Origin: an uncultured Verrucomicrobiota bacterium
GTDB lineage: Bacteria; Verrucomicrobiota; Kiritimatiellia; RZYC01
NCBI GenBank assembly: GCA_964490935.1
Contig: CAZBEO010000001.1
Location: 20,742-84,741, forward strand
DNA length: 64,000 nucleotides
Reading direction: 5' to 3'
A program made the translations under genes and the position numbers. The notes beneath the pieces are model-generated. The model was given only the letters and a program-made list of their open reading frames with translations, did no database searches and was not told the origin of the DNA. Positions 1 to 13,717 of the stretch are shown here, in pieces. Each line of letters begins with the position of its first letter. Position 1 is the stretch's first letter.

Positions 1-978
1 CAAAGCCTCCTCGCTGTCCACGCATACGGCATCCACATATCCGCAGGCCAGGGCAAGCTGTACGAAATCCACATCAAACCCCGCCGTTTTCTGCGCGCCC
101 ACAGAATCATGCACCCCGTTGTTCAATAACACATGATGAAAATGGGGGGCTTTCAAAGAGCCGATTATGGCCGGCGCGCCGAGATGCATCAGCAGCGCGC
201 CATCTCCGTCGAGACATATAACCGGGCGCTCGGTCTGCTGAAGAGCAATGCCCAAGGCAATCTGCGAGGCATGTCCCATGGAGCCGACCGTCAGAAAATC
301 TTTTTCATGATCCTGGCCACTCCGTTCACGGTATTCATATAACTCTCGCGAGAGTTGCCCCGTGGTGGAAACGACCGCCGCACGCTCCGGCAGGCAGGAC
401 ACCACCCATTCAACAGCGGCTTCCCGCTTCAACGAATAACGCACAGCGGAAGTCTTCCGCGCATACGGCTCGAATGTCCCGGCACGCACCAGCAACGCTA
501 CAGGCCGACGATCCGTTATGCTGCACCGTATCATTTCCTCCACACAGACGGCGGACTCTTGATCGTTGTCGGGAAGAAGCCGGCAGGGAATGCCCATGGC
601 TTCAAAAAGCGCCTGGGTTACCTTGCCCTGCTTCAGGTGCTGGGGTTCATCCTTCACGCCCGGTTCGCCACGCCAACCCACCAGCAGAAGCATGGGAATG
701 CCGTACACCTCAGGATCGGCCAGCGACAATAATGGATTCACGGCATTACCCTGGCCGGAGTTCTGCATGTAAACGAGAGCGGGACGCCCGGTCGCCAGAT
801 AATGGCCAGCCGCCAGGGCTACCGCGCCGCCTTCATTGGCAGCCGTCACATGGCGTCCTGTCGGCACCTCTTCGCTCACACAGGCACAAAACGACTTCAG
901 CAGCGAATCCGGAACGCCCGTAAAAAACGATACGCCGCACCCATCCAGCGTTTGAATAAATGAGTTAACCGATATCAT
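1..978 (-). CDS. aepY: phosphonopyruvate decarboxylase (ThDP-dependent), C-terminus cut by the window edge
   Basis: Reverse-strand translation from the ATG at 978..976 gives MISVNSFIQTLDGCGVSFFTGVPDSLL...LDGDGALLMHLGA. The ThDP GDG motif and the Ppd-like N-terminus are present. It sits 2 nt downstream of the PEP mutase stop. Confidence 0.7.
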   Translation of the reverse strand, partial: MISVNSFIQTLDGCGVSFFTGVPDSLLKSFCACVSEEVPTGRHVTAANEGGAVALAAGHYLATGRPALVYMQNSGQGNAVNPLLSLADPEVYGIPMLLLVGWRGEPGVKDEPQHLKQGKVTQALFEAMGIPCRLLPDNDQESAVCVEEMIRCSITDRRPVALLVRAGTFEPYARKTSAVRYSLKREAAVEWVVSCLPERAAVVSTTGQLSRELYEYRERSGQDHEKDFLTVGSMGHASQIALGIALQQTERPVICLDGDGALLMHLGAPAIIGSLKAPHFHHVLLNNGVHDSVGAQKTAGFDVDFVQLALACGYVDAVCVDSEEAL

Positions 979-980
979 GA

Positions 981-2279
981 CTAAATAAGCCCAATCACGT
1001 CTTTAATCGGCATGCAAAGCGCATCGGCTTCCCGTGCGCGTCCATGCAATAAAATGCTTTCCGCCGTTTTCTGCATGGCCGGATAGGCACTGCGTAAAAG
1101 CTGATTGGCATAGATCACCACATGCACGCCATGCCTTTCCAGTTCCTCCTCCGTCACCTGCGAATAGGTGCTTGGCACGGCCACCAGCGGAACACGGCGG
1201 GACAGCTTGGCGTACGCCTCACAAAAGGTGAAAAGTTCATCGGGCGTTTTGGCCTTGCTGTGGATCATGATGCCATCGGCCCCGGCTTCTATATAAGCCT
1301 GCACCCGGCTCAGCGCATCGGCCATCCCCGCACCCGTTATCAGACTCTCGCATCGGGCAATGATCATAAAATCATCAGAAATCTGCGACGCCTTCCCGGC
1401 GCGGATTTTTTCCGACATGATCGCCACGTCGGCCTGCTGCTGATTATTTCCAGCATCCAGCAGGGAATTTTTTTTCAGTCCGACCTTATCCTCAATGATC
1501 ACGGCAGAGATACCGAGCCGCTCGAGCGTACGCACCATGAACACAAAGTGCTCCGAAAGTCCTCCGCTGTCGCCATCATAAATAATGGGCTTCGTGGTGA
1601 CCTCAAGGATGTCATTCACCGTATGCAATCGCGAAGTGAGATCCACGCATTCAATATCCGGCTTCCCCTTCAGCGTGGAATCGGTCAGACTGCTCAGCCA
1701 CATGGCATCGAACTCGATGTTTTGAGGACCTCTCTTTACGCGGCAGTTTTCCACAATCAAACCACTGAGACCGCTGTGCGCTTCCAACGCGCGGATAAGT
1801 GGTTTCACCTTCAACAGGCGACGCAGACGCTGCCGCCGAATGTCCGGCGTGACGCCGACTTCGCGAATCGCCTTGTTAAGCTGCGTGGAAGAAATGCCTG
1901 GGGTATAGGAAGGCTCAATGAGTTCGCCCCCCCATTCGGCCAGCGCGTCGATCACGCGTTGGCGCGTCTCGCGCTGCACGCCCTCGCGCCAGTCATCGCC
2001 ATGCACCACGTAGTCGGGTTTTAATTCGCGCAGATTCGGCACATAATCCAGCGTATGCTGAGGCACCACCCGCACCACTCCCTTCAGACTTTCAACCACG
2101 GCGGCCCGCTGTTCATAGATCATGTATGGAAGGCGCTTATAGCTCGCAATGGCTTCATCGGTCAACACCCCCACCGTCACGTCGCCATATTCCGCCGCCA
2201 CCTTCAATATGTTCAAGTGTCCCGGATGAATAATGTCCGCGCTCATACCCACATATACTGTTTTCATAATGGCTGCCAT
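981..2279 (-). CDS. aepX: bifunctional cytidylyltransferase / phosphoenolpyruvate mutase
   Basis: The N-terminus carries the HxGH nucleotidyltransferase motif ([10 protein letters not shown]). The C-terminal ICL/PEPM domain carries the EDK motif ([13 protein letters not shown]) and GDSGG. Confidence 0.75.
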
Positions 2280-2312
2280 TTATCCTGCTTTATGTTCGCT
2301 GTTCTCTTTATG

Positions 2313-3494
2313 CTATGGAAACGTGGTCTCCAACTCGCTGAGCAGTTCAATCAATCCGATCACCCGCACGTTTGGTCTTAGCGTATAGCCGCCTTCAACC
2401 ATTGGACACACCACCCAGACCTGTTCCAAATTCAAACTCTCTTTTGTGGCGTTAAATCCTTTTGACAATTTGGGTGACAAGGAGGCTTTGCATTCAAAGC
2501 CGATCCGTCGCTGTCCCTGCTCCAGGATCAGATCAATTTCTTCGCCGGATGAAGTACGATAAAAGGAAGCCCGCCATCGAGGTAACTTCTGCGTGATTTG
2601 CTCTATACAAAGCCCCTCCCAAGAAGCTCCAAACAGTGGATGCGCAAAGAGGTCATCGTAAGAATGAATTTCCTGCAAGGCATGCAGAATGCCCGTGTCA
2701 CGAATATAGAATTTAGGTGCCTTCACAAGGCGTTTTTTCAGATTCAGCTCAAGGGGGGGCAAAACCCGAATCATGAACGTCTGTTCAAGCAGATCAATGT
2801 ATTTAAACACCGTACTGTGCGACCACCCCAACGATTGCCCGATCTTGGAGGCATTCAGAAGCTGTCCGTGGTAATGCGAGATCATTCGCCAGAACCGGAA
2901 AAGCCTGTTCGCAGAGATGGAAAATCCCAGCTCCGGGATGTCTCGACTCATAAAGGTCTGGATAAAATCATCCACCCATTCCCTGCATAAGCTGTCGCTT
3001 CGGGCCAGATAGGCCAGAGGAAATCCTCCCCTCCACCATAGCTTTTTAAATAGAGCCGGTCCCGGCGTCTCCAGATATACTTCTTCCAGCAAAAAGGGTG
3101 TCAATTCCAGATAATGAATACGGCCTGCAAGAGTTTCCTTTCCTTTCCGAATTAGATCCTGAGAAGCTGAGCCAAGTAGTAGAAAACGCCCTGGTCTTCT
3201 ATCCTGATCAACCAGCGCCCGCATCAACGGAAAGAGTGACGGCAACCGTTGGATTTCGTCGATGCAAACCAACTGGTCGGCACGCTCGCCAAGAAAAAGC
3301 TCCGGCTCTTCCAACCGCCTTAAATCAGAGGGCAATTCCAAGTCTAAAAACAGCAGATCATCCCGATCTTTCAACGTTTGATGCACCAACGTTGACTTGC
3401 CACACTGCCGAGGCCCTAAAACAGCCGTAACAGGATGATTGCTAACTGATTGCGCAAGTATATCAACCATATTCCGATGGTATAATGTTTGCAT
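2313..3494 (-). CDS. AAA+ ATPase with DUF4143 domain (COG1373-like)
   Basis: Walker A motif GPRQCGKSTL with a DUF4143-like C-terminal half. ATG start. Confidence 0.7.
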   Translation of the reverse strand: MQTLYHRNMVDILAQSVSNHPVTAVLGPRQCGKSTLVHQTLKDRDDLLFLDLELPSDLRRLEEPELFLGERADQLVCIDEIQRLPSLFPLMRALVDQDRRPGRFLLLGSASQDLIRKGKETLAGRIHYLELTPFLLEEVYLETPGPALFKKLWWRGGFPLAYLARSDSLCREWVDDFIQTFMSRDIPELGFSISANRLFRFWRMISHYHGQLLNASKIGQSLGWSHSTVFKYIDLLEQTFMIRVLPPLELNLKKRLVKAPKFYIRDTGILHALQEIHSYDDLFAHPLFGASWEGLCIEQITQKLPRWRASFYRTSSGEEIDLILEQGQRRIGFECKASLSPKLSKGFNATKESLNLEQVWVVCPMVEGGYTLRPNVRVIGLIELLSELETTFP

Positions 3495-3508
3495 TTCGCA
3501 CGTTACTA

Positions 3509-3531
3509 TTGCAATTTACAAAGAATTGCAA
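3509..3531. promoter_or_regulatory. perfect 8-bp inverted repeat TTGCAATT-N7-AATTGCAA upstream of the ATPase gene
   Basis: Seen directly in the sequence, about 15-35 bp upstream of the 2313..3494 start codon. A candidate operator. Confidence 0.25.
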
Positions 3532-3629
3532 GCTGAATCTTTTTCTCCGCGCTTGAAATCGTGTGGTTGCGGCGATGCTGCTCCACGCAATCTGTGGACT
3601 ACCATGATCTTCGCCCGCTCCCTTACCGC

Positions 3630-4571
3630 TCAGATTCTGTTCAGCTCATACCATTCGATCGTATTCTTCAGCCCCTCCCGGAAGTGCGTGGCAGATTTAA
3701 AGCCAAAGGCCTTTTCGGCGCGGGTGGTATCGAGTTTGCGGCGGGGCTGTCCGTTGGGCTTCGTGGTATCCCAGCGGATTTCTCCGTGGAACCCGGTCAG
3801 TTCGGCGATGAGCGCGACTAGGTCTTTGATGCTGATTTCATGGCAACTACCCAGGTTCACCGGCTCACTGTCGTTGTACTGCTCGGAGGCCAGCAGAATG
3901 CCCTCGGCGGCATCATCGACATATAGAAATTCGCGCGTAGCGGAACCATCGCCCCAGACTTCGATAAAGCCGGTTTTGGCATCGCGCGCCTCGACGCATT
4001 TCTTGATCAGCGCGGGGATCACATGCGAACTTTCCGGGTTGAAGTTGTCACGCGGCCCGTACAGGTTCACCGGAAGCAGAAAGATGGAATTATAACCATA
4101 CTGCTGACGGTACGCCTGCGACTGCACCAGCAGCATCTTCTTCGCGAGCCCGTAGGGTGCGTTGGTTTCTTCCGGATAGCCGTCCCAGAGGTCTTCTTCC
4201 TTGAAGGGCACCGGCGTATATTTCGGATACGCGCAAATTGTTCCGAGCGCCACGAATTTTTCCACCTTCCGCACATACGATTCATGCAGCAACTGCACGC
4301 CCATCATCAGGTTATTGTAGAAAAACTCGCCCGGATGCTCCCTATTCGCGCCGATGCCCCCCACCTGTGCCGCCAGATGAATCACCATCGTCGGCATGCA
4401 ACTGTCCAGCAGGCGGCACACATCCTCCTTCTTGCACAAATCGCACTTCTCATGCTGCGGAATCGTAATGATGGGTACGCCAGCGGCCTTCAGGCGCTCC
4501 ACGACGAACGATCCAAGAAAGCCCGAACCACCCGTCACCACCACCCGTTGTTGTTTCCAAAATTCGTTCAT
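3630..4571 (-). CDS. fcl: GDP-L-fucose synthase (GDP-4-keto-6-deoxymannose 3,5-epimerase/4-reductase)
   Basis: GGSGFLGS Rossmann fold, PYGLAKK catalytic YxxxK, and the GMER signature [32 protein letters not shown]. Confidence 0.85.
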
Positions 4572-4659
4572 TGAATTCTCCTTTGGGAAAGAAAAGAAGA
4601 CCCCTTACCCGTTTTTATAAAAGATCCTATTCCGGAGATGGCCCCGTGTTCTATTTTCA

Positions 4660-5841
4660 TCATTTAAGCCATTCAATGGGATCTGTTTTAAAGAAAACTT
4701 CAAACGGAATGCCCGACGGACCAACGACGACTGCTTTCGCATCGGGATATTCTCGCCGGAAGGCCGAAAGGCCCTGCTGATACCCCGGCCGTCCACTTTT
4801 TACCTCCAGCGCACAAATGGACTCCCCGTTCGATAGCACGTAATCTACTTCGTGCGGCCCTCTTCGCCAATACGTAACCACGCTGTTTGTACCAACGAGA
4901 TAGTTCAGCAAGTGGGCTCCGACGGCGTTCTCAATAAGGCGTCCGCGCCAGGTGGAATCCTGCATAGCCTTCTCACGGCTTTTCATACACAACCCATTGA
5001 TCAGCGCATTATTCCAGAGTACCAGCTTAGGGCTGCTTCCCCGTTTCTTAACATGCCCTTTCGAAAACAATTCCAACCCGCTGACCAGATACGCCCGATC
5101 AAGCAGCGTCAGGTAATGAGCCAGGGTCGTGGTATTGCCTGCATCATTCAACTGTCCGAGCATTTTATTATAGGAGAATAACTGGGCGGGAAAAGCTGCT
5201 GCCAGCCCGAATAGATTTCGCAGCAGGGCGGGTTTGTTGATCGGCTGCATTTGAAGGACGTCTCTCGAGATGGTTGATTCCACCAAGGCATCTCGAACGT
5301 ATTGCTTCCAATCATCCTCATTGTCGACGAACCGGGCCGCACCCGGATAACCGCCGAAAAAGAACCAATCCTCCAGCGACCAACCGAACGCTTCCTGCGT
5401 TTCCGCCCAATCCCAATGTGAAAATCGGTGAAGAAAAAAACGACCAGCCAAACTTTCCGTCAGCCCTTTTTGCAGCAGGAGCGCCGAGGAGCCCAGCAGC
5501 AGGAGCCGAATGTCGGCCTTGCGGCCATCCCAGAAATACTTAATCGCCTCGCTCCAATTCGGGAGCTTTTGCACCTCATCCAGGATCAGCAGCACGGGGG
5601 AGTTGTTTTTTGCACACTCCATTTCGGCCCGCTGCCATTGCGAGCTCAACCACGAATCGGCATCGGAAACCATGTAATCCGCCGTGGCATAGATAGAAGG
5701 ATAGTCCAGTTCGGCGGCAATCTGGCGGGAGGCAGTGGTCTTCCCCACTTGACGGGGACCTGTAATCACTTGAAAAACCGACGGCGTTTCGACCAGTTTA
5801 CGCACAATCGCCGGCACAGAATGTCTTTTTATTTCATTCAT
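4660..5841 (-). CDS. AAA+ ATPase with DUF4143 domain (paralog of 2313..3494)
   Basis: Walker A motif GPRQVGKTT and a LILDEVQK Walker B-like motif. The ORF-track start at 5877 is a TTG, so the internal ATG at 5841 is preferred. Confidence 0.6.
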   Translation of the reverse strand: MNEIKRHSVPAIVRKLVETPSVFQVITGPRQVGKTTASRQIAAELDYPSIYATADYMVSDADSWLSSQWQRAEMECAKNNSPVLLILDEVQKLPNWSEAIKYFWDGRKADIRLLLLGSSALLLQKGLTESLAGRFFLHRFSHWDWAETQEAFGWSLEDWFFFGGYPGAARFVDNEDDWKQYVRDALVESTISRDVLQMQPINKPALLRNLFGLAAAFPAQLFSYNKMLGQLNDAGNTTTLAHYLTLLDRAYLVSGLELFSKGHVKKRGSSPKLVLWNNALINGLCMKSREKAMQDSTWRGRLIENAVGAHLLNYLVGTNSVVTYWRRGPHEVDYVLSNGESICALEVKSGRPGYQQGLSAFRREYPDAKAVVVGPSGIPFEVFFKTDPIEWLK

Positions 5842-6008
5842 AGAGAAAGAGTAACCAATCATACTCAATGACTGCAAGATTATTGCTCAATGGAGAAGGC
5901 CCCGGCAGGATAAGCAGGAGGAAAATCCGGTCCATCCCCTTCATCCCGTCTAAAATTATTGGTTACGACTATACTGCTCCAGTCTCTAGGCGCACCATGG
6001 GCACCCCC

Positions 6009-6503
6009 TCACTTCATCAGCATACCCAGCATGACCTTATCCCACACCCATTGCACGCGCTCCTTGAACTGCGTGAAGCGCTTGATTCGTTTCTTTATGA
6101 ACTTCAGTTCTTCGTTGTTCTTTTGCGTGCCGTATTCCTTCAGCAGGCTCTGCGTCTGCTTGAGAACCTCTTCCGTGCGTTCCATGTGCTGTGCAATACT
6201 GTCGAGCATGGCCTTGCGCATGAACTTGCCCCAGTCTTCCGTCGCCTCGTAATAATCCTTGCGGTCCCCTTTTTTCCATACCTTCTTCAGAGCACCCCAC
6301 TGCTCCAGTTGTCGAACCGACATGCTGGCGCTGCCTTTGCTGATACCGAGGGCTTCGGTCAGGGCATCGAGACTCTGTGCCTCGCTGCTCAAATAGAGAT
6401 GGGCAAAAATCTGCCCGATCACCCGCCCCACGCCAAAGGATTGCGTAGCGCCCCCAGCCAATTCCACAAACGGAGCACGCAGTTCATTCACTTGTTCTTG
6501 CAT
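6009..6503 (-). CDS. MarR/GbsR-family winged-helix transcriptional regulator
   Basis: HTH segment LDALTEALGISKGSASMSVRQLEQWGAL. 164 aa. Palindromes lie near its start (6505..6524) and upstream (6733..6748). Confidence 0.5.
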   Translation of the reverse strand: MQEQVNELRAPFVELAGGATQSFGVGRVIGQIFAHLYLSSEAQSLDALTEALGISKGSASMSVRQLEQWGALKKVWKKGDRKDYYEATEDWGKFMRKAMLDSIAQHMERTEEVLKQTQSLLKEYGTQKNNEELKFIKKRIKRFTQFKERVQWVWDKVMLGMLMK

Positions 6504-6856
6504 AGACTTCGTCCCTGTGAAGTCCCGGACGGCGAGGCTTCCCTTGGCTGTTTACGAATAGTTGTGAACCGGATTTCTGACATGAAAACGACACGCCTGT
6601 GCGTTCATTTTGTTTTGAACGTATCATATCCCGCGTCGGGGTCAAGCGGGAAACAAGGCCCATGCGGGGTGGCGGGGAGGGGTATGGATCGCACGGGCGC
6701 TGCAAGCGAATGGCTACTTCAATACAGCATTTCGCAAACTTTCGTTTGCATGCAGCAATCCGTCATCTCATCCCGGAGTCGGCTATACCTGTGATCGTGG
6801 ACTACAGCTTCGAGCAACTATATGCCCAAAAATCGGACGGATTGCTACGGGTTGCT

Positions 6857-7822
6857 TTAGAGTTGGGCGACGCGGGCCTTTTGAATCCCGGTGAGCTGCA
6901 CGAGTATCTGCCGCTTGGAGCGTTCGTTCATGCAGAGAATGCGTTCACCGAGGCGCCCGGTGCTGAGGGCCTTGGCGCGCAGAGAAATCTGCAGGCTGCC
7001 CTGGCCAGCGGTCACCATGATGTAGTCGCCTTTTTTGGCGCACAAGGGGGTCCGCACGTAGTTGCGCAGAATGGGCGTGCCCTGTTTGACGGCGCGGTCC
7101 ATTTCCTGGCCGGTGATGGCTTCCTCCACCGGGATGCGCTTTTCGCCTTTGCGCTCCACCGGCATCCGTTCGCTGCGCAGGTCTTCCGGCTGGAGGAGTT
7201 GCCCGCAATCCAGGGCCCGTCCGGCCACCCAGACCTGCTGCAATTCATATTTTTTCAGTCGGACCGGGACATTGCAAATCGGCACTCCATCCACGGAGAT
7301 ATCGACCAGATAGGTGTCGTACTGATTAAAATTCCGGGCCTTGCGCGAGCGCGTCACCTGGAAAGCGGTTTCGCCGCGCGGTATCCAGATGTTGCGCTGG
7401 AGGGGCGCGAACTCCAGCATGAACTCATCGGAGTTGCCGCTCTTTATTCCGAGATGCTGCTCGACGGCTCCGGTCACTTCGCGGGGGGTGACCCGCCGTT
7501 GGGAACGGCTGACGGTGATCTTAATACTCCCGCTCACGCTGGCCGATTTCATGTCGGGGTATTGCTGAAGAGCGTAGGCCACGGAGGTGAGCGGATAGAC
7601 GGATGCTTCGTTGTCGAGGGGCGCATCGAACACCTTGCGATCGAGCCAACCTTCCGGGATGCCGGTCTGGTCCATCAGCATATCGCGCAGGAGAATGTCG
7701 GGTCCGGTTGAAACCACATCCGATTTAATCATCAGCACCTGGGCGCAGGCGAAGACGGGTACGGCGAGACAGCAAGCAATCAGCAGCAGTCTCCGGGCGT
7801 GGGTGCAGGCGTATTTTTTCAT
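6857..7822 (-). CDS. flgA: flagellar basal-body P-ring formation chaperone FlgA
   Basis: Signal peptide, SAF/FlgA C-terminal domain (GDYIMVTAGQGSLQISLRAKALSTGRLGERI). ATG at 7822 with an AAGGAG RBS. The ORF-track start at 7825 is a GTG. Confidence 0.75.
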   Translation of the reverse strand: MKKYACTHARRLLLIACCLAVPVFACAQVLMIKSDVVSTGPDILLRDMLMDQTGIPEGWLDRKVFDAPLDNEASVYPLTSVAYALQQYPDMKSASVSGSIKITVSRSQRRVTPREVTGAVEQHLGIKSGNSDEFMLEFAPLQRNIWIPRGETAFQVTRSRKARNFNQYDTYLVDISVDGVPICNVPVRLKKYELQQVWVAGRALDCGQLLQPEDLRSERMPVERKGEKRIPVEEAITGQEMDRAVKQGTPILRNYVRTPLCAKKGDYIMVTAGQGSLQISLRAKALSTGRLGERILCMNERSKRQILVQLTGIQKARVAQL

Positions 7823-7846
7823 CACAATGCTCCTTTTAAATGATTC

Positions 7847-8629
7847 CTATCGTCTCAAGGTGTTGGCAATGCCTTCCATTTCATCGGCGGCCTTGATGGT
7901 TTTCGAGTTGGCTTCGTAGGCGCGCTGCGAGAGGATCATGTGCACAAGTTCTTCGGCGGCATTCACGGCGGACGTTTCGGTGTACTTATGCGCTACCGTA
8001 CCCATGCCTTCCTCTCCGGGAATCATGCCGGCCTGCGGGGCACCGCTGGATTCCGATTCCGTAAACAGATTCCGCCCTATGCTGCGGAGCCCTTCGGGAT
8101 TCTGAAAGCGGACAAGCGTGACCTGGGCCAACTGAACCGGGTCGCCGTTGACGATCACGGTAAAGGACCCATCGGGTGCAACCGTGGTTTCGGTGGTTCC
8201 TTCGGGGATGTTGTCGAATCCGGTAACGCGATAGCCATCCACCGTGACGACCTCGCCGGTGGAGGTGCTGCGGAAGTTGCCGTCGCGAGTATAACCGGCG
8301 GTACCATCGGGCAGCGTAACCTCAAAAAACCCTTCGCCTTCGACCGCAAAATCCAGGTCACGTCCCGTTTCTTTGAGCGAGCCCTGCCGGAAGACTTTGG
8401 CGATTTCCGTCACCTTGGTGCCGTGTCCGATCTGTATGCCGTTGGGAATCTGGGCATCCCCGGATTCGGCGCCGGGGGTTAGCAGGGTGGAATAGAGCAT
8501 GTCCCCAAAGGAGATGCGGCTGGGTTTGTAGCCGGTGGTATTGATGTTGGCCAAGTTGTTGGCGATGGTGTCCAACGCCAGTTCCTGTGCCCTCATGCCT
8601 GATACGCCTGCCCATAATGAACGTTCCAT
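7847..8629 (-). CDS. flgG: flagellar distal rod protein FlgG
   Basis: N-terminal ANNLANINTTGYK and C-terminal ELVHMILSQRAYEANSK rod/hook motifs. AAGGAGG RBS. Confidence 0.85.
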   Translation of the reverse strand: MERSLWAGVSGMRAQELALDTIANNLANINTTGYKPSRISFGDMLYSTLLTPGAESGDAQIPNGIQIGHGTKVTEIAKVFRQGSLKETGRDLDFAVEGEGFFEVTLPDGTAGYTRDGNFRSTSTGEVVTVDGYRVTGFDNIPEGTTETTVAPDGSFTVIVNGDPVQLAQVTLVRFQNPEGLRSIGRNLFTESESSGAPQAGMIPGEEGMGTVAHKYTETSAVNAAEELVHMILSQRAYEANSKTIKAADEMEGIANTLRR

Positions 8630-8653
8630 GACTCCTCCTTGTGTAAAAACCGA

Positions 8654-9403
8654 CTAGGCACCCAGGGTGTTGATCATTTTAGTTTGATCCTCATCAAAGG
8701 TCCGTACCATCCGTTGATTGGCCTCAAAGGCCCGCATACAACTGATCATCTCCGCCAGCTCGTCGTAAATGGTCGTATTGCTTGCCTCGAGCGTCTTGTG
8801 CACAATTTCGTATTTATCAACATCGCCCTCACGGGCTGGCATATCTTCGGGCGCGCTGTAGAGTGCCGTTCCGGCCCGATCCAGGCGCTGCAAATCTTCA
8901 AACTGAACCACCTTGAGTGTGCCAAGCAGGTTGTTCTGCGCATCCCGAATGGTTCCGTCCGGCCCGGCGATGAGTTGGGAAAGATTGGCCTCCGGCGGCA
9001 CGACAATATTGCCGTTGGCGCCCTGCACCGGCATGCCGTCCATATTCTGCAGCGTACCATCCGGCCCCATCTTGAAATTCCCGTTTCGAGTATATAAATC
9101 GCGCTTGTCATCCCGTACCACAAAAAAACCGCTTCCCTGCACCGCGAAGTCCAGCGGACGTTCGGTCTGCTTGAGTGGTCCTTCGGTAAAATCAATGAAA
9201 ACCGGATCAAATCGACCTTTTTCGCGCAGGTCTTTGTAGAAATCAACCGACTGATTCAGGAGGGTGTCGAACACCTGGTCGCCCACGGTGAGCTTCTTAA
9301 ATCCAGGCATCGAGCTGTTCGCGATATTCTCGCTTATTGCCTGAAGGCGGTCCTGCTCGCGGCCAAGCATCTGAAATTCTGGACTGTAGAAATCGGCACT
9401 CAT
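8654..9403 (-). CDS. flgF: flagellar proximal rod protein FlgF
   Basis: ISENIANSSMPGFKK and C-terminal MISCMRAFEANQRM motifs. The start is taken at the internal ATG (MSADFYSPEF...), not the long ORF-track extension. No clear SD, so the start is uncertain. Confidence 0.65.
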   Translation of the reverse strand: MSADFYSPEFQMLGREQDRLQAISENIANSSMPGFKKLTVGDQVFDTLLNQSVDFYKDLREKGRFDPVFIDFTEGPLKQTERPLDFAVQGSGFFVVRDDKRDLYTRNGNFKMGPDGTLQNMDGMPVQGANGNIVVPPEANLSQLIAGPDGTIRDAQNNLLGTLKVVQFEDLQRLDRAGTALYSAPEDMPAREGDVDKYEIVHKTLEASNTTIYDELAEMISCMRAFEANQRMVRTFDEDQTKMINTLGA

Positions 9404-9414
9404 GCCGTGGGAAA

Positions 9415-9430
9415 AGCAGGTTGAATGCCA
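9415..9430 (-). promoter_or_regulatory. sigma54 (-24/-12)-like promoter, TGGCATTCAACCTGCT on the minus strand, upstream of flgF
   Basis: GG and GC elements spaced exactly as in TGGCACG-N4-TTGC. A near-identical motif sits divergently upstream of flgH. The -12 element lies only ~12 nt from the proposed flgF ATG. Confidence 0.4.
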
Positions 9431-9475
9431 CGCTTCGACCATTTCTTGCCAATACCTATACCGAACCAACCCACC

Positions 9476-9510
9476 TGCAACCTGCAACCCGCAACCCGGC
9501 ACCTGCACCC
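9476..9510. repeat. five tandem 7-bp units (TGCAACC TGCAACC CGCAACC CGGCACC TGCACCC)
   Basis: Seen directly in the sequence, located between the two divergent sigma54-like promoters. A candidate enhancer/activator-binding tract. Confidence 0.5.
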
Positions 9511-9518
9511 GCCTGATG

Positions 9519-9534
9519 TGGCATTCCTCCTGCT
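9519..9534 (+). promoter_or_regulatory. sigma54 (-24/-12)-like promoter TGGCATTCCTCCTGCT upstream of flgH
   Basis: GG-N10-GC spacing fits the consensus. It lies ~47 nt upstream of the flgH ATG, leaving room for a 5'UTR with the AAGAGG RBS. Confidence 0.45.
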
Positions 9535-9580
9535 ACCCTTATGCCATGAATGTAGAAATAACCCGTGTAAGAGGTGCTTT

Positions 9581-10195
9581 ATGAAGAGGATGAACCCCTT
9601 GATCTATAGCGGAATGCTCTGTTTGATGCTGACCTCATCCTCCTTGGCCGCAAGAAGTTGGAACATGGCGGCTAATTTCTACGGGCACAAGAAAGCCCGC
9701 GAGGTCGGCGACCTGCTGACCGTCCGCATCACGGAAGCCTCGAGTGTAGAAAAAGATGCCTCCCGCAGTGATAAAAAAAGCTACGGTTTGGGCGGATCGG
9801 CCAGTTTCGCTCATCCCACCATAGATAGCCGCGAGCTGGAATGGACCAATGCCACCCTCCCGAAGTTCTCCGTGGCCGCTAACCGCGACTTCTCTGGACA
9901 GGGTGCCGTTTCCGACTCAGACAAGTTTGAAACGTTCATCACCGTGCGCGTCATGGACGTGCTTCCGAACGGCGATTTGCTCATCGAAGGCAAGCGCTCT
10001 CTGATTCTGAAGAACGATACCGTGCAGGTGGTCCTGACCGGCGCCGTGCGCGTGCGGGACATTGACAATCAAAACACCATCGAATCCACGAAGATTGCCG
10101 ATGCCGTCATTCAATATCAAACCAGCGGTTCTCTCGAACGAACAACGAAGAAAGGGCTCCTTCCCCGATTTGTGGATTGGGTGAACCCGTTCTGA
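9581..10195 (+). CDS. flgH: flagellar L-ring protein FlgH
   Basis: Signal peptide and FlgH core (SRSDKKSYGLGGSASF...VRVMDVLPNGDLLIEGKR). The internal ATG with an RBS is used instead of the long ORF-track extension. Confidence 0.8.
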   Translation: MKRMNPLIYSGMLCLMLTSSSLAARSWNMAANFYGHKKAREVGDLLTVRITEASSVEKDASRSDKKSYGLGGSASFAHPTIDSRELEWTNATLPKFSVAANRDFSGQGAVSDSDKFETFITVRVMDVLPNGDLLIEGKRSLILKNDTVQVVLTGAVRVRDIDNQNTIESTKIADAVIQYQTSGSLERTTKKGLLPRFVDWVNPF

Positions 10196-10205
10196 GGACG
10201 ATCAC

Positions 10206-11363
10206 ATGAAAACAAACAAACGACTTTTCTATTTTAAAAACAATGCGGCGCGGCGTCTGATCGCCTGTTTCGCGGCGCTGGCTCTGCTGCCGTTCGGCAC
10301 ACCGACACAGGCCGCCGTCACGGCACGCCTGAAGGACATCGTGCGCATCGAGGGTGTGGATGCGGTGCAGTTGGTCGGCTACGGCATCGTGGTCGGACTC
10401 AGCGGCTCGGGCGACAAGGACCTCCAGCTCACCAAGCAGACCGTGGCCAACCTCCTCGAACAGTTTCGCATCACGATTCCCTCCACCGACATCAAAAGCA
10501 AGAATACGGCAGCGGTCATGGTCACCGCCAGCGCACCCGCCTTTCACCGCGAGGGCGACCGCGTGAACATTCAGGTCTCCACCATGGGCGACGCTTCCTC
10601 GCTCGAGGGCGGCATTCTCCTGATGACGCCGATGCTCGCTCCCGACGGCGTACTCTATGCCCTTTCCCAGGGCGCGCTGACGGTCTCGGGCTATTCCTCT
10701 GGCGTAGGCGGACGTGGAGGGCAGTCGGAGCAGGTGAATTATACCTCCGTCGGCTACATCCCGGGCGGCGCGGTGCTTCGCTACAGCCAGACCGAATCCT
10801 TTATTCAGGAAGGCATCATCCGCCTGGCCCTCAATCATGCCGATTTCACGACAGCCAACCGCCTGGCCGATGCGATCAACAAACTCTACGAAGGCTCGGC
10901 GGCGGTACGCGATGCCTCGTCGGTCTTTGTCCGTGTGCCTTCCGACATTATCGACATCGGGCAGACGGCCCGCTTCATGGCCAGCCTGGAATCGCTCACG
11001 ATCGAGCCGGATGCACAGTCCAAGGTGATCATCAACGAGCGCAGCGGCACCATTGTGATGGGCGGCAACGTACACATTGCCGAGGCCGTTGTGGCACACG
11101 GCAACCTGACTGTGCGCATTACCTCGAACCTAGCTGGCTACATGCCCGAACCCTTTACCACGGCGGAGGCCCTGGTGCTCGAAGAAACGCGCACGCAGGT
11201 ACACGAGGAGAATGCCAAGGTCATGCTGCTGCCCGGCACCACCACCGTGCAGGAACTAGCCGCCCTCCTCAATGAAGTGGGCACCACACCACGCGACATC
11301 ATCTCCATTCTCGAGGCCCTGCAGAATCTCGGCGCACTGCAAATGGAAGTGCAAACCATGTAA
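10206..11363 (+). CDS. flgI: flagellar P-ring protein FlgI
   Basis: LKDIVRIEGVDAVQLVGYGIVVGLSGSGD...; the protein is FlgI-family throughout, with a signal peptide. Confidence 0.85.
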   Translation: MKTNKRLFYFKNNAARRLIACFAALALLPFGTPTQAAVTARLKDIVRIEGVDAVQLVGYGIVVGLSGSGDKDLQLTKQTVANLLEQFRITIPSTDIKSKNTAAVMVTASAPAFHREGDRVNIQVSTMGDASSLEGGILLMTPMLAPDGVLYALSQGALTVSGYSSGVGGRGGQSEQVNYTSVGYIPGGAVLRYSQTESFIQEGIIRLALNHADFTTANRLADAINKLYEGSAAVRDASSVFVRVPSDIIDIGQTARFMASLESLTIEPDAQSKVIINERSGTIVMGGNVHIAEAVVAHGNLTVRITSNLAGYMPEPFTTAEALVLEETRTQVHEENAKVMLLPGTTTVQELAALLNEVGTTPRDIISILEALQNLGALQMEVQTM

Positions 11364-11377
11364 CTGGAGAAACCGTC

Positions 11378-11695
11378 ATGATAAATCCCATCTCATCCAA
11401 CGATGCACTTCCCGCCACCCTCGCCATGCAGGGGCGGCGTGCCGGCGAAAAACCCGATCCACTGCGCGAAGCCTGCGAAGATGCCGAAGGCCTTTTTGCA
11501 AGCCTTCTGCTGAAGGAAGGATTGAAGCCCGTGCTGGATGAAGCCGGCGAAGGAGAATCGCACTCGGGTGCGCTGTTGGAATTTTCAATCGAGGAAATGG
11601 CCCAGGAAATGGGCCGTCAAGGGCTGCTCGGAGTGGCCGATCAGTTTTATGAGCAATTGGCGGGGCAATCCAATCCGTTCGGAGGAGCACAATGA
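11378..11695 (+). CDS. flgJ: flagellar rod-binding protein (FlgJ N-terminal domain only)
   Basis: 105 aa with a rod-binding-domain pattern (ACEDAEGLFASLLLKEGLKP). No C-terminal glucosaminidase domain. GGAGA RBS. Confidence 0.55.
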   Translation: MINPISSNDALPATLAMQGRRAGEKPDPLREACEDAEGLFASLLLKEGLKPVLDEAGEGESHSGALLEFSIEEMAQEMGRQGLLGVADQFYEQLAGQSNPFGGAQ

Positions 11696-12096
11696 ACCAC
11701 AACGCGGTATCCGCAGAACTCAAAGACTGCCTGAAGCTGGTGGAGTCCGAAGCCTCCAATCTCCAGAAGGCCCTGCTCTCGCGCGACAGCGCCCTCATTC
11801 TGGACGCCGTCACACGGCAGCGCATCGCCCTGGATCAAATTCAATCGTACATCAGCGAGAACCAGGCCGACATGCGCTTCACGCCTACAGAAAAGAAGCG
11901 CGTCCTTCAGCCGATGATGCACCGCATACGCCGCGTGCTGACCATGAACGAACGCATGGCGCGAACACTCCTCGGCGTGATCGATAAAACGCTCTCGAAT
12001 CTGGCCATCGGAACCAAAAATACAGCCAATGTCTACAATGGATACGGGCGCATCGCCGGCATGGCCGCGCCTATTCTGATCAACGCACAGGGGTAA
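11692..12096 (+). CDS. putative flagellar export chaperone, FlgN-like (immediately upstream of flgK)
   Basis: 134 aa helical protein. The call rests on its position (flgJ - this gene - flgK) and a FlgN-like heptad pattern. The stop overlaps the start of the previous gene. Confidence 0.35.
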   Translation: MNHNAVSAELKDCLKLVESEASNLQKALLSRDSALILDAVTRQRIALDQIQSYISENQADMRFTPTEKKRVLQPMMHRIRRVLTMNERMARTLLGVIDKTLSNLAIGTKNTANVYNGYGRIAGMAAPILINAQG

Positions 12097-12100
12097 CGTC

Positions 12101-13537
12101 ATGTCTTCACTAACCGATATCACCACCGTGGCCCGAAGCGGCATCCTGGCGCAGCAGGAAAAGCTGAACGTCATCGCCCACAACATCACCAACGTCAACA
12201 CCAAGGGCTACCATCGGCAAACAGCCGTTCTCGCCACCAACCCGGCGAACATGCCCAACATCAGCACCACCATACCCTATTCGCAGGGCACCGGCGTCAC
12301 CGTGCAGGATGTCATGCGCGAGTACGACCTGCTCCGCGAACGGGCCCTGCTTGACGAACGCTCCGGTGCCGCCAAAGATGAATTTCTGGCCAATCAGCTC
12401 CCCGATCTCGAAGCCATCCTCCTGACCGATACCGAAAACGGACTCGCCCAGACCCTCACCCAGTTCTGGACCGCCTGGCAGAACGTGGCCACCTATCCCG
12501 ACAACATCACCATGCGCAACGTGGCACTCGAAAAAGGCGCGCAGCTCGCAGCCGTACTGAGCAAAACGACCGGCTCCCTCCAGAATTACCGCGACGCCAT
12601 CTCCGCCGGAGTTTCCCCAAACATCACCGGTTCCGTGGCCGACGAGGTGAACAGCCTGAACACCATGACCGCCGAACTCCAGAACCTGAACCGGAAAATC
12701 ACCCTCTATCAGGGCACGCGTGTTTCCACCGCCGACCTCGAAGACCGCCGCGATCTGCTCGTGGCCGACCTCGCCAAGCAGGCGGAAGTCTCCGTCGATG
12801 CCGACTACAACATCAGCATCGACGGCCAACTCCTGCTCAGCGGCGATGGCCTTACCCGCAATGAACTGAATATTACCGCCGCCGATCCGCTGACCTTTGA
12901 TGTCAACGGAAACCCCGTAAACATCGAACAGGGCGTCATCGGAGGCTGGAACGAACTGACCGCCTACATTGACTCACTCGGCGACAATCTCGATGCCCTC
13001 GCCGCCGAAGTGATCGCGCAAGTCAACACCCTGCACACCTCCGGCTATGATCTCGACGGTAACCCCGGTCTGGTTTTTTTCACCGGCACCTCCGCCTCCG
13101 ACATTTCCGTCAATGCCGCCCTCTATAATGCGGGCAACCCCCTGCTCAACAATCCGCGACTCATTGCCGCCGCGCAAACCCTCTACGATCCCGGCGGGCC
13201 CAATGAAGGGGCCAACACCGGCGACGGCGCTATCGCCCTGGCCATTGCCGATCTCTCCGGCGCCGCCCTCGCCGCCCTCGGAAACCAGTCGTTCAATCAG
13301 TATTACACGGAGCTTGCCACCAACCTCGGAACGCAGATTGGAACCTTTCAGTCGCTGGCCGAGAGTGGCGCGGCCACTATTTCCGCCCTTGAAAACGCCA
13401 TTCAATCCGAATCAGGCGTCAGCCTCGATGAAGAACTGATTCACATGATCACCGCGCAGCGCGCCTACCAAGCGGCATCCAAACTGCTCTCTGAAACCAA
13501 CACCATGTTCGATGTGCTGATGTCCATCACCCGATAA
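12101..13537 (+). CDS. flgK: flagellar hook-associated protein 1 FlgK
   Basis: N-terminal ISGILAQQEKLNVIAHNITNVNTKGY and C-terminal LIHMITAQRAYQAASKLL motifs. Confidence 0.8.
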   Translation: MSSLTDITTVARSGILAQQEKLNVIAHNITNVNTKGYHRQTAVLATNPANMPNISTTIPYSQGTGVTVQDVMREYDLLRERALLDERSGAAKDEFLANQLPDLEAILLTDTENGLAQTLTQFWTAWQNVATYPDNITMRNVALEKGAQLAAVLSKTTGSLQNYRDAISAGVSPNITGSVADEVNSLNTMTAELQNLNRKITLYQGTRVSTADLEDRRDLLVADLAKQAEVSVDADYNISIDGQLLLSGDGLTRNELNITAADPLTFDVNGNPVNIEQGVIGGWNELTAYIDSLGDNLDALAAEVIAQVNTLHTSGYDLDGNPGLVFFTGTSASDISVNAALYNAGNPLLNNPRLIAAAQTLYDPGGPNEGANTGDGAIALAIADLSGAALAALGNQSFNQYYTELATNLGTQIGTFQSLAESGAATISALENAIQSESGVSLDEELIHMITAQRAYQAASKLLSETNTMFDVLMSITR

Positions 13538-13554
13538 ATAACGGAGACCCTGCC

Positions 13555-13698
13555 ATGAAAAAGAAAAACACGCCAAGCCGCAACGCCCCTGCGGGAGAGT
13601 CCTTTAACCAGAACCTACAGGTCCTGACTCAGCAGCTCGGGCTCTACGCCATGCTCCTGCGCAACGCCTCCTCTAGGCAGCGCATAGTCAATTCTTAA
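13555..13698 (+). CDS. small hypothetical protein (47 aa) between flgK and the glycosylation-like genes
   Basis: ATG preceded by an ACGGAGA RBS; the same RBS is used by the next gene. No recognisable family. Not in the ORF track because it is under 60 aa. Confidence 0.3.
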   Translation: MKKKNTPSRNAPAGESFNQNLQVLTQQLGLYAMLLRNASSRQRIVNS

Positions 13699-13717
13699 AC
13701 GATACGGAGTACCCGGC

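What the first reader, a model, noticed from the sequence alone, without database searches (positions are those of the whole stretch)
1..2279. 2-aminoethylphosphonate biosynthesis core with a cytidylyltransferase-PEP mutase fusion
PEP mutase (EDK motif) is fused in-frame to an N-terminal HxGH cytidylyltransferase. Two nucleotides downstream lies a ThDP-dependent phosphonopyruvate decarboxylase. The fusion implies that the phosphonate is activated as a CMP conjugate and installed on a glycan or lipid. The locus continues leftward out of the window, where an AEP transaminase and transferases would be expected. GDP-fucose synthase lies just upstream, which suggests a phosphonate-decorated surface glycan.
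Basis: partly seen in the sequence, partly recalled or inferred. Interest (0 to 1): 0.55.

Follow-up and report, generated by a model that had tools for sequence, protein, structure and literature searches.

The report
Hydroxyethylphosphonate surface-glycan locus, not aminoethylphosphonate
The fused cytidylyltransferase-PEP mutase gene and the phosphonopyruvate decarboxylase are real, but the gene just past the window edge is an alcohol dehydrogenase, not a transaminase, so this is an ordinary member of a widespread, already described cassette that most likely makes CMP-activated 2-hydroxyethylphosphonate for a surface polysaccharide.

Summary
Window 981..2279 (-) encodes a 432-aa protein with an HxGH cytidylyltransferase domain and a complete PEP mutase. 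The cytidylyltransferase domain is 70% identical to the solved Fom1 CyTase domain (PDB 5x3d). The PEP mutase has the EDKxxxxxNS motif and all catalytic residues. Two nucleotides downstream begins a phosphonopyruvate decarboxylase, cut by the window edge.

An ENA contig (L087) is 100% identical to window 1..13724 and runs 6.4 kb past the left edge. It shows Ppd, then an iron alcohol dehydrogenase (relatives are named phosphonoacetaldehyde reductase), a methyltransferase, Wzy, a TagF-like phosphotransferase, a GT4 glycosyltransferase and a second methyltransferase. There is no AEP transaminase. In 61-64 of 67 testable related genome loci the order is likewise fusion, Ppd, Fe-ADH.

The predicted product is therefore CMP-2-hydroxyethylphosphonate (the chemistry of Fom1, Fom2 and FomC), transferred to a Wzy-dependent glycan. 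It is not AEP.

The fusion type is already described: 23.6% of PEP mutases carry it (Rice 2019), and Fom1 has been characterised. This is a new member of a known kind, in a probable Kiritimatiellae genome. The one open angle is the frequent adjacency of a TagF-like gene, which suggests an uncharacterised phosphonyl transferase that uses CMP-HEP.

The parts
981..2279 (-). Bifunctional Fom1-type gene: N-terminal HxGH cytidylyltransferase fused to PEP mutase (432 aa, stop codon included)
   Evidence: ORF list. Pfam PF01467 and PF13714. TIGR02320 at 380 bits, above its 319.55 cutoff. PDB 5x3d at E 1e-61 and PEP mutases 5unc/1m1b at E 1e-34 to 1e-37.
1857..2261 (-). Cytidylyltransferase domain (aa 7-141)
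   Evidence: 95 of 135 residues (70%) are identical to the solved Fom1 CyTase domain, PDB 5x3d. A GISST motif lies at aa 128-132.
2217..2228 (-). HPGH (HxGH) nucleotide-binding motif, aa 18-21
   Evidence: Motif search. The DNA reads 'catccgggacac'.
984..1832 (-). PEP mutase domain (aa 150-432)
   Evidence: Aligned with Mytilus PEP mutase 1m1b. W194, S196, L198, D208, D235, D237, E263, K269, N271, S272, R309 and H340 correspond to W44, S46, L48, D58, D85, D87, E114, K120, N122, S123, R159 and H190.
1464..1493 (-). [10 protein letters not shown], the PEP-mutase-specific EDKxxxxxNS motif (aa 263-272)
   Evidence: Motif search. The motif is defined as Ppm-specific in Rice 2019.
1..978 (-). Phosphonopyruvate decarboxylase (Ppd), first 326 of 375 aa, cut by the window edge. 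It starts 2 nt after the fusion's stop codon.
   Evidence: TIGR03297 at 432 bits for the partial protein and 483 bits for the full-length protein in L087. TPP_enzyme_N and TPP_enzyme_C domains.
3630..4571 (-). GDP-L-fucose-synthase-like SDR (313 aa). It is syntenic with the fusion in close relatives.
   Evidence: Best solved relatives are GDP-L-fucose synthases (8du0, E 1.6e-66). NF047922 scores 291 bits, below its 500 cutoff. It lies directly next to the fusion in L082 and one gene away in L084.
2313..3494 (-). AAA_14/DUF4143 ATPase lying between the SDR and the fusion. Probably not part of the pathway.
   Evidence: Pfam. PADLOC candidate defence family PDC-S01 at E 4e-87. Absent at this position in L082 and present in L084.
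4660..5877 (-). Second AAA_14/DUF4143 ATPase, lying between the regulator and the SDR. Probably not part of the pathway.
   Evidence: Pfam. PADLOC PDC-S01 at E 8e-150. Absent at this position in L082 and L084.
6009..6503 (-). 164-aa MarR/GbsR-like putative regulator at the head of the locus
   Evidence: MarR_2 is weak. CudC-like at 68 bits, below cutoff. A 164-aa gene occupies the same position upstream of the SDR in L082, L083, L084 and L086.

Best explanation
This is the start of a 2-hydroxyethylphosphonate (HEP) surface-glycan locus in a probable Kiritimatiellae genome.

Proposed pathway:
1. The PEP mutase domain converts PEP to phosphonopyruvate.
2. The translationally coupled Ppd pulls that unfavourable equilibrium forward by decarboxylating phosphonopyruvate to phosphonoacetaldehyde.
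3. The next gene, just beyond the window edge, is an Fe-dependent alcohol dehydrogenase that reduces the aldehyde to HEP.
4. The N-terminal Fom1-type cytidylyltransferase domain then condenses HEP with CTP to give CMP-HEP.
5. A phosphotransferase transfers the phosphonyl group from CMP-HEP to a sugar hydroxyl of a Wzy-polymerised, probably O-methylated polysaccharide, releasing CMP. The TagF-like enzyme encoded four genes further on is the most likely candidate.

What is shown: the identity of both domains and their catalytic residues, the Ppd, the gene order past the window edge, and the conservation of the cassette.

What is inferred: the substrate of the Fe-ADH, the HEP specificity of the CyTase domain, the role of the TagF-like enzyme, and the nature of the acceptor.
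For: Domains and residues.

The leftward continuation was read directly. L087 is 100% identical to window 13724..1 over 13,724 nt. It continues with Ppd (375 aa), Fe-ADH (367 aa), a SAM methyltransferase, Wzy_C, Glyphos_transf (PF04464, 198 bits), GT4 and a second methyltransferase. The exact Fe-ADH sequence (P0121) and the fusion (P0001) both list a longest contig of 129,081 nt.

NCBI names the 75%-identical and other homologues of the Fe-ADH 'phosphonoacetaldehyde reductase'.

The order fusion-Ppd-Fe-ADH is kept in 61-64 of 67 testable loci from many phyla.

Fom1's CyTase domain is 70% identical here and was shown to make CMP-HEP from CTP and HEP (Cho 2017, as cited in PMC6697681).

A TagF-like gene occurs in 23 related loci, often directly after the Fe-ADH, and 21 of these have no second HxGH cytidylyltransferase that could supply CDP-glycerol. 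None is present in the window or in the extension either.

The histidines that align with positions 444 and 584 of S. epidermidis TagF (3l7i) are conserved. These are the catalytic histidines, from my own recollection of the TagF structure paper.
Against: - The Fe-ADH does not reach any NCBIfam equivalog cutoff (TIGR03405 Phn_Fe-ADH 141 bits vs 423.7). Its substrate rests on gene context and on the names given to homologues.
- No enzyme here was assayed.
- PF01467-Ppm fusions also occur in some AEPT-encoding neighbourhoods (GCF 743 in PMC8942020), so this domain family is not strictly tied to HEP.
- An AEP transaminase could be encoded elsewhere in the genome.
- The 88%-identical relative L082 shows no recognisable Glyphos_transf within 10 kb, so the TagF link is frequent but not universal.
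- The extension comes from a different assembly from the window, although it is identical over the whole overlap.
Confidence: 0.8

Rival explanations
1. One reading: a Ppm-Ppd-AEP transaminase core makes 2-aminoethylphosphonate, which is activated as CMP-AEP and installed on a glycan or lipid.
For: Ppm and Ppd are present. AEP is the commonest predicted outcome of ppm neighbourhoods (56%, PMC8942020). PF01467-Ppm fusions exist in some AEPT neighbourhoods.
Against: The 6.4 kb past the window edge and the 13.7 kb on the other side hold no class-V aminotransferase. The post-Ppd gene is an Fe-ADH. No Aminotran_5 was seen next to the cassette in related loci. The AEP-specific cytidylyltransferases characterised so far are PF12804 LicC-like PntCs, not this domain type.
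Confidence: 0.05
2. CMP-HEP is a transient intermediate of a small-molecule phosphonate pathway (fosfomycin-like, methylphosphonate, or another HEP-derived natural product) rather than a glycan decoration.
For: Fom1, Fom2 and FomC perform exactly these first steps in fosfomycin biosynthesis. About 6 kb of the 26-kb contig and the rest of the genome were not seen.
Against: The called genes of L087 include no radical-SAM/B12 methyltransferase, no cupin or HppE/MpnS/HEPD-like gene, and no FomD-like hydrolase. The neighbours are Wzy, TagF-like, GT4 and methyltransferases, and a flippase in the syntenic relatives.
Confidence: 0.05
3. HEP is made and cytidylylated as proposed. However, the TagF-like enzyme uses ordinary CDP-glycerol or CDP-ribitol, and a different, unrecognised transferase installs HEP, possibly on a glycerol or a lipid rather than directly on a sugar.
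For: All characterised TagF-family enzymes use CDP-polyols (one search hits: TarL, TagF, Cps3D). From my recollection of Yu 2014, HEP-glycerol esters were recovered from actinomycete phosphonoglycans. L082 lacks a recognisable TagF-like gene. A Kiritimatiellales relative (L003) has a CDP-alcohol phosphatidyltransferase inside the cassette, which points to a lipid route in some lineages.
Against: No HxGH glycerol-3-phosphate cytidylyltransferase is present in the window or in the extension, and none was found in 21 of 23 related loci that carry a TagF-like gene. The TagF-like gene often directly follows the Fe-ADH.
Confidence: 0.1

Closest known systems
Fom1 (Streptomyces wedmorensis fosfomycin pathway), a bifunctional HEP cytidylyltransferase / PEP mutase, together with Fom2 (Ppd) and FomC (Fe-ADH)
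   Same: The two-domain architecture is the same. The CyTase domain is 70% identical to the solved Fom1 domain (5x3d). It has the same partner enzymes, Ppd and an Fe-ADH, and so the same predicted product, CMP-HEP.
   Different: No Fom3, Fom4 or FomD equivalents are present. The neighbours are glycan-assembly genes, so CMP-HEP is predicted to be a donor for transfer rather than a handle for methylation. The host is a probable Kiritimatiellae rather than an actinomycete.
PntC-Ppm fusions of the phosphonyl tailoring (Pnt) pathway (Rice et al. 2019, e.g. Treponema denticola Tde1415)
   Same: A nucleotidyltransferase is fused to the N-terminus of Ppm. The logic of cytidylyl activation followed by transfer to a cell-surface molecule is the same, and the neighbourhood is also a surface-glycan one.
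   Different: The characterised PntCs are LicC-like PF12804 domains specific for AEP and are partnered with an AEP transaminase and LicD. Here the domain is PF01467 (HxGH), and the partners are an Fe-ADH and a TagF-like transferase.
HEP phosphonoglycan clusters of Glycomyces sp. and Stackebrandtia nassauensis (Yu et al. 2014; the PhpC-type HEP neighbourhoods in Li and Horsman 2022)
   Same: The route from Ppm and Ppd through an Fe-ADH to HEP is the same. Glycosyltransferases and SAM methyltransferases are present, which fits the O-methylated sugars and HEP esters reported there (chemical details are from my own knowledge of the 2014 paper, which could not be read here).
   Different: The phylum differs. 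The product here is uncharacterised. I could not compare the gene clusters directly.
TagF/TarF/TarL CDP-polyol phosphotransferases (Glyphos_transf, PF04464)
   Same: The 414-aa protein just outside the window matches PF04464 end to end (198 bits). Its closest solved relatives are TarL (E 1e-23) and TagF (E 3e-17), and both histidines that align with TagF residues 444 and 584 are kept.
   Different: It falls far below the NCBIfam equivalog cutoffs (TarF 108 bits vs 550). The predicted donor is CMP-HEP, a phosphonate anhydride, rather than CDP-glycerol or CDP-ribitol. This has not been tested.

Membership tests
PEP mutase (Ppm, EC 5.4.2.9) | Matches the family model above the curated cutoff | tested here: met
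   TIGR02320 at 380.4 bits vs cutoff 319.55. PF13714 at 187.8 bits vs cutoff 31.5.
PEP mutase (Ppm, EC 5.4.2.9) | The EDKxxxxxNS motif, which separates true Ppm from other isocitrate-lyase-superfamily members | tested here: met
   [10 protein letters not shown] at aa 263-272. The motif definition is from PMC6697681.
PEP mutase (Ppm, EC 5.4.2.9) | Catalytic and Mg-binding residues of Mytilus Ppm (D58, D85, D87, E114, K120, N122, R159, H190) | tested here: met
   All are conserved in the HMMER alignment to 1m1b, as D208, D235, D237, E263, K269, N271, R309 and H340. The residue roles are from my own knowledge of the Mytilus structures.
PEP mutase (Ppm, EC 5.4.2.9) | PEP to phosphonopyruvate activity | not testable with these tools
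   This needs an enzyme assay.
Fom1-type bifunctional CyTase-Ppm (EC 2.7.7.104 / 5.4.2.9) | An N-terminal PF01467 HxGH cytidylyltransferase domain in frame with Ppm | tested here: met
   PF01467 at aa 13-134, HPGH at aa 18-21, in a single 432-aa ORF. The same architecture is found in all 120 listed homologues.
Fom1-type bifunctional CyTase-Ppm (EC 2.7.7.104 / 5.4.2.9) | Close similarity to the characterised Fom1 CyTase domain | tested here: met
   E 1.2e-61 to PDB 5x3d, with 95 of 135 residues identical.
Fom1-type bifunctional CyTase-Ppm (EC 2.7.7.104 / 5.4.2.9) | A supply of HEP from an adjacent Ppd and an Fe-dependent phosphonoacetaldehyde reductase | tested here: met
   Ppd lies 2 nt downstream. 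The Fe-ADH starts 19 nt after Ppd in the identical contig L087. Homologues are named phosphonoacetaldehyde reductase.
Fom1-type bifunctional CyTase-Ppm (EC 2.7.7.104 / 5.4.2.9) | Cytidylylation of HEP in preference to AEP or other phosphonates | not testable with these tools
   This needs a kinetic assay with CTP and HEP, AEP or phosphocholine.
Fosfomycin biosynthetic cluster | A B12/radical-SAM methyltransferase (Fom3), the HppE epoxidase (Fom4) and the CMP-HPP hydrolase (FomD) nearby | tested here: not met
   None appears among the called genes of L087, which covers about 6.4 kb beyond Ppd and 11 kb upstream of the fusion.
AEP biosynthesis core (Ppm-Ppd-AEPT) | A class-V aminotransferase (PhnW/AEPT, PF00266) next to Ppd | tested here: not met
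   The post-Ppd gene is an Fe-ADH and L087 holds no aminotransferase. None was found next to the cassette in related loci. The rest of the genome was not seen.
PntC (AEP-specific phosphonyl tailoring cytidylyltransferase) | A LicC-like MobA/NTP_transf_3 (PF12804) fold | tested here: not met
   The only nucleotidyltransferase hit is PF01467.
TagF-like phosphotransferase (Glyphos_transf), the gene just outside the window | A full-length PF04464 match and conserved catalytic histidines | tested here: met
   197.9 bits over model positions 6-364 of 367. His in the WHG motif and His in the RPH motif align with positions 444 and 584 of TagF.
TagF-like phosphotransferase (Glyphos_transf), the gene just outside the window | Donor substrate (CDP-glycerol or CDP-ribitol for known members; CMP-HEP proposed here) | not testable with these tools
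   The evidence is indirect only. No second HxGH CyTase is present in the window, in the extension, or in 21 of 23 TagF-bearing related loci.
GDP-L-fucose synthase (Fcl/WcaG) | Matches the equivalog model above cutoff, and has a GDP-mannose dehydratase partner | tested here: inconclusive
   NF047922 at 291 bits vs cutoff 500. The best PDB hits are GDP-L-fucose synthases at E 1.6e-66. No Gmd-like gene is adjacent in the window or in L082/L084.

The most novel reading that the evidence does not exclude
The TagF-like protein encoded four genes past Ppd, together with its counterparts that directly follow the fusion-Ppd-Fe-ADH cassette in many phyla, may be a phosphonyl transferase that uses CMP-HEP in place of CDP-glycerol. 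It would esterify HEP onto sugars or, because HEP keeps a free hydroxyl, might even extend short teichoic-acid-like HEP chains. That would be the first enzyme assigned to installing HEP on glycans and a new donor class for the TagF family. It would also give a genetic handle on the source of HEP esters in environmental high-molecular-weight organic phosphorus.
Probability: 0.4. Interest if true: 0.5.

Novelty: new member of a known kind. Interest (0 to 1): 0.27.

Why it matters
The main value is as a correction. Annotating Ppm plus Ppd as 'AEP biosynthesis' is a common reflex, and here reading 6 kb further shows the HEP branch instead. HEP esters on polysaccharides are a major form of marine and environmental organic phosphonate, and a source of ethylene (and, through methylphosphonate, of methane). 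Yet few producers and no HEP transferase have been characterised.

The survey around this window shows two things. The fusion-Ppd-Fe-ADH cassette is very conserved (63-77% identity across bacterial phyla, candidate-phyla-radiation (Patescibacteria) bacteria and archaea). It is also most often followed by a TagF-like gene, which gives a concrete candidate for biochemical testing. The window itself adds one more host lineage (a probable Kiritimatiellae) to a known system.

Tried and rejected
1. Looking up the fusion protein to extend the contig gave only a 3.1-kb JGI contig that ends inside Ppd.
2. The ATPase as I delimited it is not on record.
3. The SDR look-up succeeded and gave L087.
4. Extending further failed. 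The look-up with the Fe-ADH (P0121) returned only short contigs of about 2 kb. About 6 kb of the 26-kb contig and the rest of the 129-kb NCBI contig therefore remain unseen.
5. The Cho 2017 (Fom1) and Yu 2014 (phosphonoglycan) papers are not held. Their content is cited second-hand or from memory.
6. The promoter and terminator scan of 1..7000 found fewer sites than the shuffled controls and says nothing about operon structure.
7. NCBIfam gave no equivalog-level name for the Fe-ADH, the TagF-like protein, Wzy or the methyltransferases.
8. I considered and rejected the idea that the fusion is an assembly artefact, given thousands of same-architecture homologues.
9. I considered and rejected a link to the adjacent flagellar genes. 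That adjacency is not conserved in L082 or L084.
10. I did not run a structure prediction, because 70% identity to a solved domain makes it unnecessary.
Full report

Yes. Window 981..2279 on the minus strand is a single 432-aa ORF. Pfam places a cytidylyltransferase-like domain (PF01467) at aa 13-134 and a PEP mutase domain (PF13714) at aa 152-410. NCBIfam's PEP mutase equivalog TIGR02320 scores 380 bits, above its cutoff of 319.55.

The HxGH motif is HPGH at aa 18-21. The Ppm-specific motif EDKxxxxxNS is [10 protein letters not shown] at aa 263-272.

In the HMMER alignment to the Mytilus PEP mutase structure 1m1b, every residue I know to be catalytic or metal-binding is conserved. Mytilus W44, S46, L48, D58, D85, D87, E114, K120, N122, S123, R159 and H190 correspond to W194, S196, L198, D208, D235, D237, E263, K269, N271, S272, R309 and H340.

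The stop codon (983..981) is followed by 'tc' and then the ATG at 978 of a second ORF that runs off the window. That ORF's 326 visible residues match phosphonopyruvate decarboxylase TIGR03297 at 432 bits (cutoff 312.5).

- The active-site residues are present.
- The N-terminal domain aligns with a solved nucleotidyltransferase, the Fom1 CyTase domain (PDB 5x3d), at E 1e-61 with 95 of 135 residues identical.

The fusion is not an artefact. A database search hit the 8000-candidate ceiling, and all 120 listed hits have the same two domains and lengths of 423-448 aa.

**2. What lies beyond the left edge?**

This was the key untested prediction. A look-up of the SDR protein returned an ENA contig, L087 (26 kb, of which 20,095 nt are held). 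It is 100% identical to window 13724..1 over all 13,724 overlapping bases and continues 6,371 nt further. The order of genes after the fusion is as follows.

| Gene | Size | Evidence |
|---|---|---|
| Ppd | 375 aa | TIGR03297, 483 bits |
| Iron-containing alcohol dehydrogenase | 367 aa | starts 19 nt after Ppd |
| SAM methyltransferase | 263 aa as called (275-aa ORF) | Pfam methyltransferase families |
| Wzy_C polymerase/ligase-like membrane protein | 492 aa | Pfam Wzy_C |
| TagF-like Glyphos_transf protein | 414 aa | PF04464, 198 bits, end to end |
| GT4 glycosyltransferase | 386 aa | Pfam GT4 families |
| Second methyltransferase | cut by the end of the held sequence | Pfam methyltransferase families |

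There is no class-V aminotransferase. The exact Fe-ADH sequence (P0121) and the exact fusion sequence (P0001) both list a longest contig of 129,081 nt, consistent with both lying on the contig from which the window was cut. NCBI names the 75%-identical homologue, and many more distant ones, 'phosphonoacetaldehyde reductase'.

The closest relatives are Kiritimatiellae metagenome-assembled genomes (MAGs) whose fusion proteins are 88% and 85% identical. They are syntenic: a 164-aa regulator-like gene, the SDR, an optional ATPase, the fusion, Ppd, the Fe-ADH and Wzy, followed by glycosyltransferases, a methyltransferase and a flippase.

**3. How general is this?**

A genome-collection scan returned 80 loci from many lineages: Verrucomicrobiota/Kiritimatiellales, Desulfobacterota, Spirochaetota, Bacteroidota, Gammaproteobacteria, Chloroflexota, Patescibacteria and several archaeal lineages. 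Their fusion proteins are 63-77% identical to this one.

By clustering of ORFs and by tblastn, 61 of the 67 loci with enough downstream sequence have fusion, Ppd and Fe-ADH together. Three more have the Fe-ADH with Ppd displaced or undetected. L019, one of the two loci scored as lacking the Fe-ADH, shows it in the clustering.

I took 104 genes, the first one or two downstream of the cassette in those loci, and added the window genome's own TagF-like gene, giving 105. Among these the commonest Pfam family is Glyphos_transf (22 members). It is followed by flippases, GT2, YidC-like plus Sulfatase proteins and LicD. Aminotran_5 is not among the 25 most frequent families. It is also absent from the 10 genes scanned from four loci that lack an adjacent Fe-ADH or Ppd (L003, L007, L033, L075).

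In 23 loci with a TagF-like gene, that gene often starts directly after the Fe-ADH. Only 2 of these loci contain a second HxGH cytidylyltransferase that could supply CDP-glycerol. The window and its extension contain none.

**4. Mechanism**

Shown:
- a complete Ppm active site;
- a Ppd coupled by a 2-nt spacer;
- an Fe-ADH next in line;
- a CyTase domain 70% identical to the one enzyme of this type that has been characterised.

From established knowledge:
- Ppm's equilibrium lies towards PEP and is pulled forward by Ppd.
- Fe-ADHs such as PhpC and FomC reduce phosphonoacetaldehyde to HEP (PMC8942020).
- Fom1's CyTase domain makes CMP-HEP from CTP and HEP (Cho 2017, as summarised in PMC6697681).

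Inferred:
- This locus makes CMP-HEP.
- A transferase, most plausibly the TagF-like enzyme, moves the phosphonyl group onto a sugar hydroxyl with release of CMP. CMP-HEP is a close analogue of CDP-glycerol, with CH2 in place of the bridging oxygen.
- The acceptor is a Wzy-dependent polysaccharide.
- The two methyltransferases may O-methylate sugars, as in the actinomycete HEP phosphonoglycans (from my recollection of Yu 2014, which is cited).

**5. Comparison with what is known**

Rice et al. 2019 catalogued Ppm fusions. Of 1485 true Ppm sequences, 23.6% carry PF01467, with Fom1 as the exemplar, and 33% carry the LicC-like PF12804 domain. The AEP-specific PntC enzymes they characterised are of the PF12804 type.

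Li and Horsman 2022 assigned 8.5% of ppm neighbourhoods to the HEP branch through PhpC-like Fe-ADHs. They noted that only two of these neighbourhoods have known products.

The present locus fits these descriptions fully. It is a Fom1-type enzyme by architecture, by similarity and by its partner genes. It is not a fosfomycin cluster, because no Fom3, Fom4 or FomD is present. It is not an AEP core, because there is no AEPT and no PntC-type domain.

In the papers I could search, I found no description of a transferase for HEP or of the link between the cassette and TagF-like genes. The library is incomplete, so this is not proof of novelty.

**6. The remaining claims**

The 'GDP-fucose synthase just upstream' is a 313-aa SDR at 3630..4571. 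Its best solved relatives are GDP-L-fucose synthases (E 1.6e-66), but it scores below NCBIfam's equivalog cutoff (291 vs 500 bits), and no GDP-mannose dehydratase is adjacent.

It is separated from the fusion by an AAA_14/DUF4143 ATPase gene, and a second such ATPase lies on its other side. Both match PADLOC's single-gene defence candidate PDC-S01. Their presence varies among relatives: none in L082, one in L084 and two here. They therefore look like insertions rather than pathway genes. In L082 the SDR abuts the fusion directly, which supports its membership of the locus.

**7. Verdict**

- Observation: confirmed.
- Interpretation: partly supported. The fusion, CMP activation and a glycan destination hold. 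AEP and the predicted transaminase do not.
- Novelty: this is a new member of a known kind.
- Interest: low to moderate. The only forward-looking element is the testable idea that TagF-family enzymes next to this cassette are CMP-HEP-dependent phosphonyl transferases.

Noticed in passing
window 2313..3494 (-) and 4660..5877 (-): Two AAA_14/DUF4143 ATPase genes sit between the genes of the glycan locus. Both match PADLOC's single-gene defence candidate PDC-S01 (E 4e-87 and 8e-150). Their presence differs among close relatives: none in L082, one in L084 and two here. This suggests recent insertion.
   Followed up: partly
L003:1750-2895 (Kiritimatiellales MAG): In this relative two small genes lie between the fusion and Ppd. 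One of them is a CDP-alcohol phosphatidyltransferase (PF01066). No Fe-ADH is adjacent. This hints at a phosphonolipid branch that uses the same fused enzyme.
   Followed up: partly
L006, L010, L019, L030, L055, L062, L065, L072 (mostly Bacteroidales/Salinivirgaceae and Cloacimonadota; L006 is a Spirochaetales MAG): Directly after the fusion-Ppd-Fe-ADH cassette these loci carry a divergent Glyphos_transf-like gene paired with a protein of about 1000 aa. That protein combines a YidC-like (60KD_IMP) N-terminus with a Sulfatase/LtaS-like domain. This unusual pairing may be a membrane phosphonyl-transfer machine.
   Followed up: no
L075:3-2091 and 10001-13538; L027:4313-6027; L014, L026, L029: Some loci carry two copies of the fusion (L075; the second has the order fusion, Fe-ADH, Ppd). 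Others carry an extra stand-alone HxGH cytidylyltransferase, 30-34% identical to the fused domain, next to the fusion.
   Followed up: partly
L002-L081 as a set: The fused protein is 63-77% identical across very distant lineages, including Patescibacteria, Nanoarchaeota, Woesearchaeota and Methanomassiliicoccales. This is far more conserved than the host phylogeny would predict and implies frequent horizontal transfer of the cassette.
   Followed up: no
window 6857..13724 (both strands): The phosphonate/glycan locus directly abuts a flagellar basal-body cluster (FlgA, FlgG/F-like rod proteins, FlgH, FlgI, FlgK by Pfam in L087). This adjacency is not conserved in the closest relatives.
   Followed up: partly
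window 23605..29031 (-) and 18992..22429 (+): Two very large ORFs (1808 aa and 1145 aa) were seen in the ORF list and not examined.
   Followed up: no
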